In this document: piece after piece, positions 3,001-7,207 of the stretch | Numbering within the stretch: the stretch's first letter is position 1 | How the letters are laid out: each line of letters starts with the position of its first letter | From: a virus | Lineage: Duplodnaviria > Heunggongvirae > Uroviricota > Caudoviricetes | Length of the DNA stretch: 7,207 nt | Direction: 5' to 3' (one strand) | IMG/VR virus record: IMGVR_UViG_2675903559_000012 | Position numbers: made by a program

Positions 3001-6000
3001 ACCTACCGGAATTTTTTTCCGGTTAAACGTTAATCAGGCTGGTGGGCTTTACCTGTTCGGTAGGTGTTATGATTATCGTAATACCTTTCCCCCAATGGGG
3101 TAAAAGCATCAACCGTAACGAAAGTCGTTATGGTTGCCACTGATACCCCAAATTTGGGTATCACGAGTAAGACCCAAAATCTGGGTGTTACTCTTACTAC
3201 CCAAACTACGGGTAGTTTCCGTAGTTTCATGGTCGAGTTGCAGATCTGCAACTCCCCCATTAACCACAGGCGAATTTCCGCCTTCGGTCATTCCTTAATC
3301 ATCTGCGTAATCATAATGATTATTCAGCAAGCGCAATTTTGCGCTTTGCTTAAAGTTCAGCGAGTTACCGCGCCGACTTCCTCAAATTGAGGTTTCCGAA
3401 AATATCAGCGGGTTAGCGATTAAGCTGATCATTAATTAAACTGCGAAAATTTCGTAGTTTGTGACTGTCTTTCAGGCAGCTTGTTAACAGTCCTCAGAAG
3501 CGAGGGATGTAGCCACCCATTTTTGGTCCGTCGGGAATATCAACCAGTTACCGCCGCAACCGCTCCGGCTTCTTCCAGTGGTACGTTATTTTCTCCTTCT
3601 CCCGATACATCTCCACGCGGCGACGGTAGGCCAGCAACTCAAGAACTCTGGTTCGTATGTTGCGCATATCCACGCCATTAAGTTCTATACCATCACGGCG
3701 CATCACCTCAGCAACAACACGCGCATAGTTTTCGGCTGTCACGCTGTCCGGCTGCGTGGTCTGTTCGTCAGCCTGCTGGCTGATTCCAGAGACGCGGCGG
3801 ATTAATCGCAGTATTTCGGATTCAGTCATAGCGTACTACGTTACTTATCTTTATTCGGCTGCAACTTTTCCGGTACGTTTCCGGTTGTTTCTTTCAAGTA
3901 ATCAGCCAGTATCTGTGGGAGGTTGTCGGCAACTCTGGCACTGGCATTACAGGCTTTAACCACTTCCCTTTTAAGCCTATCCAGCATGGCGGGGGTAATC
4001 TGTGGGAAGCTCCTTTGCATAGTAAGCGGGAGGCTGTCCATGATTGATGAAATCTGACTCGCCAGCTTTGAAAGCGCGTACAGGCAAAACTCAGTATCGA
4101 TCACGTCACCGCGATCGCGCTCGTTTTTAAGTTCCTGCGCCTCCGCCTGTGCTGTCAGTAATCTGATCCTGACTCGTAAGAGTTCATCATCATCAATATC
4201 GCCTTTGTCGTTTGTAAGCTGGCTAATTGCATTGTTAACCCTATTGTCTATCACGCTGGCAACATCGTAAAACGCCTCACGGCCTTTACGTTCAACGGGA
4301 GTCACTCCCCACTTGTCGAACGCTGTCGCACTTACACGGCAGCTTTTCGCCATGTTTTTTTTGTTCATCAGGTGCGATTTCATTAATACACCAACTTAAT
4401 TACTGCTTCAGGTTGGTGTATTGTTTGCATCTTTCCCTTTTCATTCATAAAGATAGAGCAAACAACAAAACCACCACCACCCCCCTGAAAAGGCTCATAA
4501 ATAGCGAAAAACCGCGAGGTCGCCGCCCCGTAACGGGTCCATATGCCGGAAAGGACCCGTAAAAAAAAGCCGGATTTCTCCGGCCTTGTCTCAGATGGTT
4601 TTCAGTATGCGATCGATGTCGCCGTCATCGCCCTGGTTTCTGCCATCGTATGCCATGCCAGCTGATACGGCTTGCGGGCTGTGCATGTCCATAAAGTTTT
4701 CAAAGGCTGCGGTAAGTTCCGGCGCAACCTTCGGACGTTCCTGCTCTATGGTCATGCTAAGGATGCTTTTAGCCGTACCAACATCGATACAAGGCACGTT
4801 TGCCATTGCACGTAACAGCGGCTGATAGTCGCCAGATTCATCAAGCGCCATAATCGCATCAGCGCGCGGCTTGTCCTGCTCTTCCAGTTTGTTAAGTTGA
4901 TATATGGCCTCGTAGGTTGATAACCCTCTGTCAGCCATTGCCCGCGCTTCGGCTTTAAATTTACTCGCCAGCGGTAGCGTCATGATGCTTTCATTCGTTG
5001 CCATCGTTCCCCCTGCTTATCGGGCCAGCGGCTGAACGGATACGCCAGAACCCGCAAAGGCGGCGCATTTTTTCGCATCGGTGTCGACGCTCTCAGGCCA
5101 GTTAACGGCGGCAATATTGAATATCCCCGTCTTGTAACACTGTGCTGATTTCTGCTTTGACGTGTCCACAGGATACGAAGTCAGATAAACAGCCTTGCCA
5201 GATTCCTGACCATCCCACGGCTTAAACTCGCCATTGTCCGCCAGCATCAGCGGGGTAAATTCCTGAATAACGCCAGCATCAACGGCAAAATGTACCAGCG
5301 TCGTGGCGACCTGCTGACTGCCTGCAAATAACTCAATGTATGGAGTGTCCATAGAATCCCCCGTTAAGCAATTTTGACGGTAACAAATTTGCGAATATCT
5401 GCCGGAACCGGCTGCGGTGCGCTGTGCGTCTGCACGTACTCAATCGCCGGATCGCCGTCCTCAATCCAGTTTTTCGGGTAAAACATGTTTTGCGTTGCGC
5501 CCGTTCTTACTGCGTCCTGATCCATAATCGCACCATAGGCCACCAGCCCTTTATTGTTGGTGTTGCCCAGGACAAGCAAATCAGGCTCAAGGAAATATTT
5601 TTCTGTGCCGTCGCTGTCGGCGTATTTGCCGGAATAGACGATAAGGGCAATATCGCCCAGATAGCCTTTAAAGCTCACCACTTCGCCCAGGTTTTTACAG
5701 GCCAGCTCTGCGGCGGACTCTGAACCACGGGAAAGATCGTACAGCTCACGGAATTTTTTAAAGCTGCGTAACGTGCGCCATACCTCAGCGCCCATAATCA
5801 TGACGTTTGCGGGGCAACCAGCCTGATCAGCATAAAGCTCGATGTCATAGATTGGATCGTGTGTTTCCTTATCTGCCTCTGACCACTTTTTACCCGGTCC
5901 CTGTCTGGCGATGTTTTTACTTGGGATCTTCCAGTCTATTTCATAGCGTTCTATGCCTTCGCCCTCAATGATGTTTTTTCCGGTCGTTATCGCATTCACC

Positions 6001-7207
6001 GCCAGCCATTCCACGCGCGCTTTAATGGCGTTTATCTGGCGGCGCATGTTGCCAGTAATCAGGCGCATACGGCGGTAGGTAGGGTCGTTAAGCTGTGCTG
6101 GATCTTCTCCAGCCATGCGCATGATGGTTTTTGTTGGATCGATTTCGTGCTTTGGCTTCATGTAGCCAGGTTTGATTGTGCTGGTTTCGTACCCTTTATC
6201 GCGCTGAACCTGGCTACCCACCATAGGCGAACAAAACGCCGACATGGTGACTTCTTCAATGTCCAGGGTATCCAGCATGATGTTTTGGGTGCTGAATGTC
6301 GCCACGTTCGGGAAAAACAGCGTGGTAAACAGCGGACTGAATTTAAATTCCGCAATATCCCCGCGATTCAGGTACGCAAAAAGCTGGTTAGTGTTAAGTG
6401 CCATTGCTTTTACTGTCATTATTCACCCCCATAATTTTTATGCATCCCAAGCGCCGCAAGTAAATAAGAGCGCACAAGTGAACCTATCGACGGCTCCGGC
6501 GTCATCAGCGGATCCAGTCCAGCTGCCACGCCAGCCTCATAGTTTTTTTTGTGGCGCTGCTTGAGCACCTCCACGATTTCGGGGCTTATGTACACCGAAA
6601 CACCGCCTTTTTTCTCTTCAGCCATAGTAAGAAATTCCTCTTTGACTTAAAAAATCATAACTGGATGTTCATCCAGATCTGATTATAATCATGATTGCAT
6701 TTTATGCAATGATGTTGAGTTGTGTTGCAAATTATGAAATGATGATCCCGATCATGTGTGTCAGTGCACCAAAAAAAACCTCATATGCAAAAGCCCGATA
6801 AGATGCCTCCTGTACTTATCGGGCTTTTTTTGGGTACAAAAAAGCCGGATTACTCCGGCTGTTGATTAGCTGCCTGGGTAATTACGCCATATTTCATCGC
6901 TTACACCATCTATACTCATTTCAGCATAAGTGCGATCGACTGCCTTTCTCAGGTCTCCGAAGTTATCCGGCGGCTCCGGTGGCCTCTGTGCCTTCCTGGA
7001 ACATTCCAGCCGTCGCATCGTAACCTGATGCCGTTCCTTGTCTGTCTCCACCAGCTGCATGACTTCACCCCATCGCGCCGCCGCCCTCCGGTAAAATCCT
7101 TTCGCCTCGAGTTCCTCCGCTATGCGGTCATGTATCATCGCCTGACTCTCCGGTTTTTACGTTGATGGTTGTTACCTGTTCCGCTTCGGCAATCTCCCGT
7201 TCTGTCA

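What the first reader, a model, noticed from the sequence alone, without database searches (positions are those of the whole stretch)
5017..6419. Element-encoded gpE-like capsid and gpD-like decoration proteins, in reversed order and without portal, protease or scaffold
A gpE-like major capsid protein and a gpD-like decoration protein are encoded back to back, but in the order E then D (lambda has D then E), and without flanking portal, protease or scaffold genes. In staphylococcal cos-type islands, a capsid-protein homologue (Ccm of SaPIbov5) is known to redirect helper capsid assembly to a smaller size. An analogous capsid-remodelling role is a reasonable hypothesis here, possibly co-assembling with a helper portal and scaffold.
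Basis: partly seen in the sequence, partly recalled or inferred. Interest (0 to 1): 0.75.

Follow-up and report, generated by a model that had tools for sequence, protein, structure and literature searches.

The report
Known satellite-island capsid gene cassette
These are the capsid and decoration genes of a well-studied type of E. coli phage-parasitic island; they were described, deleted and crystallised years ago, and the one new point is that a small scaffold-like gene sits right beside them.

Summary
Window 6419-5364 (-) encodes a full-length lambda gpE-type capsid protein, and 5352-5017 (-) a gpD-type decoration protein, in the order E then D. Complete relatives are about 12 kb and run int-alpA-primase-ssb-PerC-p68-E-D-x-terS. 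They have no portal, protease or large terminase.

This is a classical Gram-negative phage-inducible chromosomal island (PICI) inserted in tqsA. E, D and the next gene are 96.9%, 98.2% and 99.3% identical to EcCICFT073 c1499, c1500 and their neighbour. PDB 3BQW is c1499.

Fillol-Salom et al. 2018 already raised the Ccm analogy. They deleted both genes and saw no effect on interference or on transfer. Packaged DNA was phage-sized only.

"No scaffold" is wrong. The adjacent 137-aa ORF (5004-4591) is a truncated Nu3-type scaffold homologue (hhalign 97%, E 5e-11).

Other results:
- PICI E and D form their own clade (200/200 bootstraps).
- Both are under purifying selection.
- E-then-D holds in all 13 PICI loci examined and in none of at least 17 phages checked.

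Best guess: a functional but redundant shell-building cassette that uses the helper's portal and protease. Novelty: already known. Interest is low to moderate.

The parts
5364..6419 (-). gpE-type major capsid protein, 351 aa; orthologue of EcCICFT073 c1499 (PDB 3BQW)
   Evidence: PF03864 3.3e-50; phrog_29 2e-107; 43% identical to lambda E; 96.9% to the CFT073 island protein, which is 100% identical to 3BQW; dN/dS 0.08-0.18
5017..5352 (-). gpD/SHP-type head decoration protein, 111 aa; orthologue of c1500
   Evidence: PF02924 2.4e-17; phrog_49 2e-26; PDB 1TD0 (phage 21 SHP) 1.4e-13 and lambda gpD 4e-9; 98.2% identical to the CFT073 island protein
4591..5004 (-). Mini-Nu3: truncated Nu3-type scaffolding-protein homologue, 137 aa, with two Nu3-type repeats and a C-terminal tail; it has no protease domain
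   Evidence: phrog_53 C-terminus 9e-9; tblastn hits fall only on C/Nu3 of 21-like phages; 37% identical to phage 21 Nu3 residues 115-192, E 4e-11; hhalign 97.1%, E 5e-11; a natural 93-aa variant, P0025, lacks exactly one repeat; AF2 model is all-helical with low confidence
6419..6625 (-). p68: conserved 68-aa protein of unknown function, first gene of the operon; its stop overlaps the E start (TAATG)
   Evidence: phrog_3255, function unknown; 100% amino-acid conservation with dS 0.06-0.16; AF2 pLDDT 73 showing an extended N-terminus and two helices; no fold match; sequence
6682..6710 (-). Candidate operon promoter (-35 TTGCAT, 16 nt spacer, -10 TATAAT) overlapped by the palindrome ATTGCAT-AAA-ATGCAAT
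   Evidence: Read directly from the sequence; it falls below the consensus scanner's -35 threshold; the region is 85-94% conserved in relatives. Inference only.
6843..6860 (-). Intrinsic-terminator-like hairpin after PerC, upstream of the capsid operon
   Evidence: a second hairpin follows it
4566..4587 (-). Intrinsic-terminator-like hairpin plus T8 that ends the p68-E-D-Nu3' operon
4470..4560 (-). Lambda-type cos: exact cosN GGGCGGCGACCT at 4528-4517; about -32 to +35 around it is close to 90% identical to lambda; cosB has diverged
3841..4383 (-). Nu1-type small terminase subunit, 180 aa (not an Rpp)
   Evidence: PF07471 2.3e-23; phrog_57 3e-53; 35% identical to lambda Nu1 over the full length; residues 61-167 are 50% identical to a CFT073 prophage TerS, and there is no BLAST hit to RppA
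3548..3829 (-). Conserved 93-aa island protein of unknown function (last gene before the island end)
   Evidence: phrog_1561; 73-95% identical in all E. coli islands examined; 86% to the CFT073 island protein
6866..7138 (-). PerC-family regulator, a typical Gram-negative PICI accessory gene
   Evidence: PF06069 1.3e-43; literature
2646..2782 (+). 5' fragment of host tqsA, interrupted by the island; the attachment core is about TGCTGTTAT at 2774-2782

Best explanation
Identity (near certain). The region is the capsid cassette of a classical Gram-negative cos-type PICI of the EcCICFT073 family, inserted in tqsA. The cassette is a four-gene operon, p68-E-D-miniNu3, on the minus strand. It is bracketed by terminator-like hairpins. 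A lambda-type cos site and the island's own Nu1-like small terminase follow it directly.

Mechanism (inferred, not shown). After induction the island makes its own matched set of shell proteins: a coat protein, a cement protein and a short scaffold. These assemble on the helper's portal and are matured by the helper's protease into ordinary full-size heads, either alone or mixed with helper gpE. The island is about 12.3 kb, so three or four concatenated copies would fill such a head. The cassette therefore supplements or backs up the helper's shell proteins and does not resize the capsid. That redundancy would explain why deleting it has no laboratory phenotype. Packaging specificity comes from the island's TerS (or Rpp in other islands) acting at the island's own cosB together with the helper's large terminase.
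For: Identity:
- Orthology to c1499, c1500 and the neighbouring gene is 96.9%, 98.2% and 99.3%, and 3BQW equals c1499.
- Complete relatives have the int-alpA-primase-ssb-PerC-p68-E-D-x-terS/rpp-p93 layout at five attachment sites.
- The same layout occurs in Kluyvera, Superficieibacter, Cedecea and Kosakonia.
- 597 of 5426 complete E. coli genomes carry at least 80% of the cassette.

The genes are functional, not decaying:
- dN/dS is 0.08-0.18 for E, 0.06-0.30 for D and 0.24-0.35 for mini-Nu3 where dS is unsaturated.
- Within the closest clade, E has 37 variable amino-acid sites against 77 synonymous-only sites.
- All four genes have strong ribosome-binding sites, and the p68 and E reading frames overlap.

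They form a matched set:
- The E and D trees are congruent, and each splits PICI from phage in 200 of 200 bootstraps.
- E and D differ far more between island lineages (about 54% identity) than TerS (79-86%) or p93 (73-91%) do, so they move as a cassette.

They look like real DNA-filled shells. From established lambda biology, a gpD-type cement binds only expanded capsids, and a poison subunit would not need one. The mini-Nu3 keeps the repeats and C-terminal tail that it shares with the C/Nu3 of phage-21-type helpers, including CFT073's own prophages.

Full-size heads and redundancy: the published deletions had no effect, and virion DNA was phage-sized (PMC6092414).

cos and TerS.
Against: No experiment shows that the island's E, D or mini-Nu3 are present in any particle. 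The deletions had no phenotype with lambda or with the 21-type resident prophages, so any benefit is unproven. The HE-PICI-type lineages (L006, L007, L014-L017) carry E and D, but an AlpA-like HTH gene replaces the mini-Nu3, so a dedicated scaffold is not universal. At about 45% identity to helper gpE, compatibility with the helper's portal, protease and gpFI is only assumed. The mini-Nu3 model has low confidence (pLDDT 53).
Confidence: 0.45

Rival explanations
1. Ccm-like size redirection. The island's E, with mini-Nu3, forces small (T=3 or T=4) capsids that fit one island copy and exclude the helper genome, but only with helpers or conditions not yet tested.
For: It is a satellite-borne homologue of the helper coat protein, as Ccm is. 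A scaffold-like partner is present, recalling CpmB of SaPI1. PmCI172, a Pasteurella PICI with a capsid homologue, does make small capsids.
Against: For orthologues 97-98% identical, virion DNA was phage-sized only, and the deletions changed neither interference nor transfer, with lambda and with 21-type resident prophages. The island length of about 12.3 kb fits full-size heads as three or four copies (coordinates).
Confidence: 0.12
2. Anti-phage poison. Island E, D and mini-Nu3 co-assemble with, or titrate the scaffold, protease or portal of, competing non-helper lambdoid phages, giving defective heads and protecting the host and the island.
For: PICIs commonly carry interference functions. 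The mini-Nu3 resembles the part of C/Nu3 that phage protease and scaffold share. Amino-acid variation in E clusters in the N-terminal arm and in residues 167-188, as might be expected for an interaction surface.
Against: Deleting c1499 or c1500 did not restore lambda plaques. RppA alone accounts for the interference. A poison would not need a co-evolving cement protein.
Confidence: 0.13
3. Prohead-level packaging specificity. Shells containing island E are the preferred docking target of the island's TerS/Rpp-TerL-DNA complex. From my memory of lambda genetics, fin mutations in E bypass gpFI, so the coat protein can influence terminase-prohead docking.
For: The cassette lies directly next to cos and terS/rpp in every island examined. 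The islands carry no FI homologue (reference set).
Against: There is no direct evidence. Transfer was unchanged in the deletion mutants. E/D types and TerS types are mixed freely among islands.
Confidence: 0.1
4. Hitch-hiking remnant of a captured head module with no present function.
For: Deletion has no phenotype. Some PICIs lack capsid genes altogether: 8 of 29 reference islands, and EcCIMP1.
Against: dN/dS is well below 1 in all three genes. The reading frames are intact in hundreds of genomes and in four other genera. The PICI-specific clade is old, with no member above 46% identity to any of 50,697 phage records.
Confidence: 0.1
5. Ordinary or degraded lambdoid prophage head module.
For: The homology to gpE, gpD, Nu3 and Nu1 is clear.
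Against: Complete relatives are about 12-kb int-alpA-primase islands with no portal, protease, large terminase, tail or lysis genes. The gene order is the reverse of every phage checked.
Confidence: 0.01

Closest known systems
EcCICFT073 c1499 (capsid, PDB 3BQW) and c1500 (head decoration), classical Gram-negative PICI (Fillol-Salom et al. 2018, PMC6092414)
   Same: The gene order p68-E-D-137aa is the same, at 96.9%, 98.2% and 99.3% amino-acid identity for E, D and the 137-aa protein. PerC lies upstream and the 93-aa gene downstream. cosN is lambda-type.
   Different: The window's island sits in tqsA, not between roxA and phoQ. It carries a full Nu1-like TerS where EcCICFT073 has RppA. It also lacks the second, inverted cos copy found in EcCICFT073.
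Lambda and phage 21 head genes C/Nu3, D (SHP) and E
   Same: The protein families are the same over their full length for E and D. The mini-Nu3 shares the repeats and the FxxFMxxHSPxxV tail of phage 21 Nu3.
   Different: Identity is only 41-46% for E and 34-47% for D. The order is reversed. The scaffold stands alone, is truncated, and lies downstream of E and D instead of being nested in a protease gene upstream. There is no portal or protease.
Ccm of SaPIbov5 (cos-type staphylococcal island)
   Same: It is a satellite-encoded homologue of the helper's HK97-fold coat protein in a cos-packaged island.
   Different: Ccm makes small capsids and interferes with the helper. The EcCICFT073 orthologues do neither in the published tests. 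Ccm has no accompanying decoration protein or Nu3-like partner.
cf-PICIs (EcCIEDL933; Alqurainy et al.)
   Same: They share the PICI backbone (int, alpA, primase) and carry their own capsid protein.
   Different: cf-PICIs also encode a portal, protease, head-tail connectors, HNH and both terminase subunits, and they make their own small capsids. None of these genes is present here.
HE-PICIs ('11capE'; PMC10111431)
   Same: They have the same E-then-D pair and the same Nu1-like TerS and 93-aa gene (L006, L016, L017).
   Different: They are integrated inside the helper's gene E. Their E is about 54% identical to the window's. An AlpA-like HTH gene replaces the mini-Nu3.

Membership tests
Lambda gpE major capsid protein family (Pfam PF03864) | Profile match above the curated cutoff, over the full length | tested here: met
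   171.4 bits against a cutoff of 22.9, residues 26-349; 43% identical to lambda gpE over 328 aa
Lambda gpE major capsid protein family (Pfam PF03864) | Assembles into an icosahedral shell | not testable with these tools
   A crystal structure of the orthologue exists (3BQW), but no assembly data were found
Lambda gpD / phage 21 SHP decoration family (Pfam PF02924) | Profile match above the cutoff, and similarity to solved gpD and SHP | tested here: met
   63.5 bits against a cutoff of 29.1; 1TD0 at 1.4e-13 and 1C5E at 3.9e-9
Ordinary lambdoid head module | Portal (B), protease (C) and large terminase (A) adjacent; order D then E | tested here: not met
   All are absent from the complete relatives. 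The order is E then D in 13 of 13 islands and D then E in at least 17 of 17 phages
Classical Gram-negative PICI (EcCICFT073 type) | About 10-15 kb with int, alpA and primase-replicase, genes in one direction, and no tail or lysis genes | tested here: met
   Met in complete relatives at the same tqsA site (L001, L002). The window shows only the right-hand part, and its own int, alpA and primase lie beyond position 7207
Classical Gram-negative PICI (EcCICFT073 type) | Helper-type cosN with an island-specific cosB, next to an island Rpp or TerS | tested here: met
   Exact cosN at 4528-4517; the flanks are close to 90% identical to lambda and cosB has diverged; a Nu1-like TerS follows
Classical Gram-negative PICI (EcCICFT073 type) | Induction, packaging and transfer by a helper phage | not testable with these tools
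   Shown for EcCICFT073 in the literature, not for this island
Ccm-type size-redirecting capsid homologue (SaPIbov5) | Satellite-encoded homologue of the helper's coat protein | tested here: met
Ccm-type size-redirecting capsid homologue (SaPIbov5) | Produces satellite-sized small capsids and thereby interferes with the helper | not testable with these tools
   Published tests on orthologues 97-98% identical were negative (PMC6092414)
cf-PICI | Own portal, protease, head-tail connectors and large terminase | tested here: not met
Nu3-type scaffolding protein | Sequence homology to phage Nu3 (repeats plus C-terminal tail) | tested here: met
   BLASTP 4e-11; hhalign 97.1%, E 5e-11; a 195-aa Nu3-like protein was the only remote hit of that kind in 1.84 billion representatives
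Nu3-type scaffolding protein | Nested in frame in the 3' part of protease gene C, upstream of D and E | tested here: not met
   It is a stand-alone 137-aa ORF downstream of D, and the island has no protease gene
Rpp (redirecting phage packaging) | About 144-153 aa wHTH protein homologous to RppA, B or C | tested here: not met
   The window's 180-aa protein has no BLAST hit to RppA and aligns with lambda Nu1 over its full length

The most novel reading that the evidence does not exclude
The p68-E-D-miniNu3 operon is a self-contained shell-building kit. With it, classical PICIs would build their own procapsids on stolen helper portals. That would make them an evolutionary and functional intermediate between islands that steal whole capsids and cf-PICIs that steal only tails. 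These shells might be preferentially filled by the island's TerS/Rpp-terminase complex, or might be smaller with helpers not yet tested. The Nu3-derived mini-scaffold would be a Gram-negative counterpart of SaPI CpmB.
Probability: 0.2. Interest if true: 0.65.

Novelty: already known. Interest (0 to 1): 0.3.

Why it matters
The finding as given repeats published work. The gene pair, the Ccm analogy and the deletion test are all in Fillol-Salom et al. 2018, and the capsid protein's crystal structure has been in the PDB as 3BQW. The open question is why about 11% of complete E. coli genomes, and islands in at least four other genera, keep a capsid cassette under purifying selection when it can be deleted in the laboratory without effect. 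This analysis adds four things:
- The cassette includes a Nu3-derived mini-scaffold. I found no paper mentioning this.
- E and D form a satellite-specific clade and co-vary.
- The E-then-D order cleanly separates islands from phages, which could help annotation.
- The operon appears to be an insulated unit with its own promoter and operator.
Together these make the idea that the island builds its own shell on a stolen portal concretely testable.

Tried and rejected
- The first genome-contig scan with the single capsid protein found no confirmed relative. The second scan, with an alignment, gave four loci.
- NCBIfam had no hit for any of six island proteins. Rfam had no hit in the window.
- I searched the PDB with the 93-aa, 137-aa and 180-aa proteins, looking for Rpp or other solved relatives. 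Only chance hits came back.
- Direct BLASTP of the 137-aa protein against lambda C/Nu3 and FI found nothing significant. The homology shows up only against 21-type Nu3 and by profile comparison. This also argues against RefSeq's name for it, 'phage head-tail connector protein'.
- The exhaustive HMMER search with the 137-aa protein gave 10 hits, and only one of the remote ones was clearly a phage-type Nu3. The family is narrow.
- The AF2 model of the mini-Nu3 had pLDDT 53, too poor for a fold search.
- The AF2 model of p68 had pLDDT 73, but Foldseek against the PDB found nothing with E below 3. My guess that p68 is a ribbon-helix-helix regulator is unsupported.
- I considered that lambda might simply be the wrong helper for seeing a phenotype. 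I rejected this as a full explanation, because CFT073's resident prophages carry phage-21-type heads and the deletions did not alter transfer by them either.
- The small 'phage' records of about 20 kb with gpE-like proteins (vB_EcoM-569R10) are partial myovirus prophages with the order D then E, not satellites.
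Full report
**What the window is**

The left part of the window is E. coli chromosome. It holds asr (145-417), ydgD (693-1514), mdtI and mdtJ (1553-2234, minus strand) and the first ~46 codons of tqsA (2646 to about 2782). From about 2783 to the end of the window lies an inserted element, and all of its genes are on the minus strand. In transcription order these are:
- a PerC-family regulator (7138-6866);
- a 68-aa protein, p68 (6625-6419);
- a 351-aa protein (6419-5364);
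- a 111-aa protein (5352-5017);
- a 137-aa protein (5004-4591);
- a 180-aa protein (4383-3841);
- a 93-aa protein (3829-3548);
- 765 bp of non-coding DNA running to the junction with tqsA.

**Checking the observation**

The 351-aa protein is a full-length lambda gpE-type capsid protein.
- It matches Pfam Phage_cap_E at 3.3e-50 and phrog_29 at 2e-107.
- It is 43% identical to lambda gpE over 328 residues (E 4e-93) and 45% identical to phage 21 gp7.

The 111-aa protein is a gpD/SHP-type decoration protein.
- It matches Pfam HDPD at 2.4e-17.
- Its best solved relatives are phage 21 SHP (1.4e-13) and lambda gpD (about 4e-9).

The order is E then D. The genes are 11 nt apart and each has a strong ribosome-binding site. 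Lambda, 21, N15, phi80 and Gifsy-1 have D then E. So does every other phage record for which both coordinates were returned, at least 17 records.

The window ends before the left half of the element, so I fetched complete relatives. At the same tqsA site (L001, L002) the element is about 12.3 kb. It runs int, alpA-like HTH, icd-like, DUF4222, primase, ssb, (PerC), p68, E, D, the 137-aa gene, terS and the 93-aa gene. It has no portal, protease, large terminase, tail or lysis genes. The same right-hand module occurs in islands at other sites:
- tRNA-Pro/yejM, including E. coli Nissle;
- cspD-clpS;
- abgR-smrA;
- roxA-phoQ in CFT073;
- inside gene E of a lambda-like prophage.

One part does not: the element is not scaffold-less.

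**The overlooked third gene**

The 137-aa ORF starts 12 nt after D. Several lines of evidence tie it to the Nu3 scaffolding protein.
- It matches the C-terminal end (positions 494-567 of 583) of phrog_53, 'head maturation protease', at 9e-9.
- In 50,697 phage records its only tblastn hits lie on the C/Nu3 genes of phage-21-like phages.
- Residues 49-131 align with residues 115-192 of the 200-aa phage 21 scaffolding protein at 37% identity (E 4e-11).
- A profile of the island family against a profile of phage Nu3 proteins gives 97.1% probability, E 5e-11, over 115 columns.

The protein consists of two Nu3-type repeats, an 'F-E-x-F-M-x-x-H-S-P-x-A-V' tail, and an acidic, then hydrophobic, C-terminus. 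A natural 93-aa variant lacks exactly one repeat. The equivalent 141-aa gene of a more distant island (L005) is also Nu3-like.

It has no protease domain and no detectable similarity to lambda's own Nu3 tail or to FI. The AF2 model is all-helical but of low confidence.

Not every island lineage has this gene. The lineages that include the helper-embedded islands carry an AlpA-like HTH gene in that position. I found no paper in the searchable library that combines Nu3, scaffolding, satellite and PICI. RefSeq names the protein 'hypothetical' or 'head-tail connector'.

**This is a known element, and the hypothesis has been tested**

The island in E. coli CFT073 between roxA and phoQ is EcCICFT073. 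Its capsid, decoration and 137-aa proteins are 96.9%, 98.2% and 99.3% identical to those of the window. PDB entry 3BQW, 'putative capsid protein of prophage', is 100% identical to the CFT073 island capsid protein.

Fillol-Salom et al. 2018 (PMC6092414) describe c1499 (capsid) and c1500 (head decoration) and explicitly raise the SaPIbov5 Ccm analogy. They deleted each gene. Neither deletion restored lambda plaque formation, and neither affected island transfer by the resident prophages. All packaged DNA was phage-sized, which they take to rule out size redirection.

Later papers repeat this. Capsid genes occur in 21 of 29 reference Gram-negative PICIs and are not required for transfer (PMC10111431). 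EcCICFT073 is packaged into normal-size capsids (PMC6893505). Interference and packaging specificity are explained by RppA, which is c1503 (PMC6739421).

CFT073's two lambdoid prophages carry phage-21-type head genes. Their E is 94-100% and their C 98-99.8% identical to phage 21. The negative transfer result therefore covers the head type whose scaffold tail the mini-Nu3 resembles.

**What the new comparisons add**

- *Prevalence.* 597 of 5426 complete E. coli genomes (11%) carry at least 80% of the E-D-miniNu3 segment at roughly 93% nucleotide identity or more. About 400 more carry distant E-D pairs in the same order.
- *Other genera.* Islands with E-D-x-(terS) occur in Kluyvera, Superficieibacter, Cedecea and Kosakonia.
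- *A satellite clade.* Island E proteins are 52-97% identical to each other but only 39-48% identical to the seven phage E proteins compared. The split between islands and phages appears in 200 of 200 bootstrap replicates for E and also for D, and the two trees share the same major subclades. No phage record exceeds 46% identity to the window's E.
- *Selection.* dN/dS is 0.08-0.18 for E, 0.06-0.30 for D, 0.24-0.35 for mini-Nu3 and 0.09-0.21 for TerS, in comparisons where dS is unsaturated. Within the closest clade, E has 37 variable amino-acid sites against 77 synonymous-only sites. The amino-acid changes cluster in the N-terminal 24 residues and in residues 167-188.
- *Mosaic structure.* E and D are about 54% identical between island lineages whose TerS and 93-aa proteins are 73-91% identical. 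The capsid genes therefore travel as a matched cassette.
- *Operon structure.* Two hairpin terminators follow PerC. Next comes a possible promoter, with a perfect TATAAT at 6687-6682 and a weak -35, overlapped by the palindrome ATTGCAT-AAA-ATGCAAT. The operon p68-E-D-miniNu3 follows, with a TAATG overlap between p68 and E. A hairpin plus T8 terminator at 4587-4566 closes it. The promoter assignment is my reading of the sequence and nothing more.

**Packaging context**

Thirty-eight bases after the closing terminator lies an exact lambda cosN, GGGCGGCGACCT (4528-4517, minus strand). Roughly -32 to +35 around it is close to 90% identical to lambda cos, and beyond that the cosB region is unrelated.

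The 180-aa protein that follows is a full-length Nu1-type small terminase. It is 35% identical to lambda Nu1 over the whole length. Residues 61-167 are 50% identical to the TerS of a CFT073 prophage, and it has no similarity to RppA. This island therefore probably redirects the helper's large terminase with its own TerS, whereas EcCICFT073 uses Rpp. That is inference by analogy with the published Rpp mechanism.

**Most likely mechanism**

The identity of the cassette is secure. The function is not.

Three observations argue that these are working shell proteins. They are under purifying selection. The coat and cement proteins co-evolve. A scaffold-like partner is present, and the cement protein is kept even though, in lambda, such a protein binds only expanded capsids. 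Remnants or simple poisons would not show this pattern.

Three other observations point to full-size heads built with helper parts and redundant with helper gpE and gpD. The island has no portal, protease or large terminase. Virion DNA is phage-sized. The deletions have no phenotype. An island of about 12.3 kb fits a lambda-size head as three or four copies.

I give this model about 0.45. The rivals are:
- size redirection with untested helpers (0.12);
- poisoning of non-helper phages (0.13);
- prohead-level packaging specificity (0.10);
- a functionless remnant (0.10);
- an ordinary prophage module (0.01, refuted).

**Verdict**

Novelty is 'already known'. Residual interest comes from the unexplained conservation of a dispensable capsid cassette and from the apparently unreported mini-scaffold.

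Noticed in passing
L013 44298 (EcCICFT073); L001 13120; L002 13231; L008 8062; L009 8060; absent from window 3829-3841: Many relatives, including EcCICFT073 itself, carry a second exact cosN in inverted orientation, in a gap of about 255 bp between terS/rppA and the 93-aa gene. Its flank resembles phage 21 cosB. In the window these two genes are only 11 bp apart and there is a single cosN. The 2022 review of PICI cos sites contains neither 'two cos' nor 'inverted'.
   Followed up: partly
window 6419-6625 (-): p68 is 100% conserved at the amino-acid level among four islands despite dS of 0.06-0.16, and its stop overlaps the capsid gene's start. The AF2 model (pLDDT 73) shows an extended N-terminus and two helices. 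It has no Pfam, NCBIfam or Foldseek match. A ribbon-helix-helix regulator is only a guess.
   Followed up: partly
window 6682-6710 (-) and 6785-6860 (-): A perfect TATAAT with a weak -35 is overlapped by the palindrome ATTGCAT-AAA-ATGCAAT, and two hairpin terminators precede it after PerC. The capsid operon looks like an insulated unit with its own regulation.
   Followed up: no
window 2783-3547: The island end is 765 bp of non-coding DNA with several ACCCAAAnnTGGGT-type inverted repeats (3096-3230) and a near-palindrome (3226-3263). Parts are conserved in other islands. There is no Rfam match. The tandem TGACTACACC repeat at 2857-2878 recurs near the other island end in L001 and may be an integrase arm site.
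   Followed up: partly
window 3841-4383 (-): This island has a full Nu1-like TerS where EcCICFT073 has RppA. The C-terminal two-thirds are 50% identical to the TerS of a CFT073 prophage while the N-terminal DNA-binding part differs. That fits a swap of cosB specificity with the same large-terminase partner.
   Followed up: partly
window 2646-2810 (+): The island splits tqsA, the AI-2 exporter gene, after about codon 46. RefSeq annotates both halves as pseudogenes in relatives.
   Followed up: no
window 6866-7138 (-): A PerC-family regulator lies just upstream of the capsid operon. PICI PerC homologues have been reported to repress, or to have no effect on, LEE expression (PMC11773190).
   Followed up: no
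window 5364-6419 (-), residues 1-24 and 167-188: Among six closely related islands, amino-acid changes in the capsid protein cluster in the N-terminal arm and in one 22-residue patch (11 of 37 variable sites). The rest of the protein varies almost only synonymously.
   Followed up: partly
L012 and L013 (E. coli CFT073 prophages): Both lambdoid prophages of CFT073, one of them at icd, carry head genes nearly identical to phage 21 (E 94-100%, C 98-99.8%). The natural helpers of EcCICFT073 are therefore 21-type in their heads, not lambda-type.
   Followed up: yes
phage collection record MW865293.1 (Vibrio phage 187P1, 15.4 kb): This very small 'phage' record has a gpE-family capsid protein at 29.5% identity. 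It may be a satellite or a partial genome.
   Followed up: no
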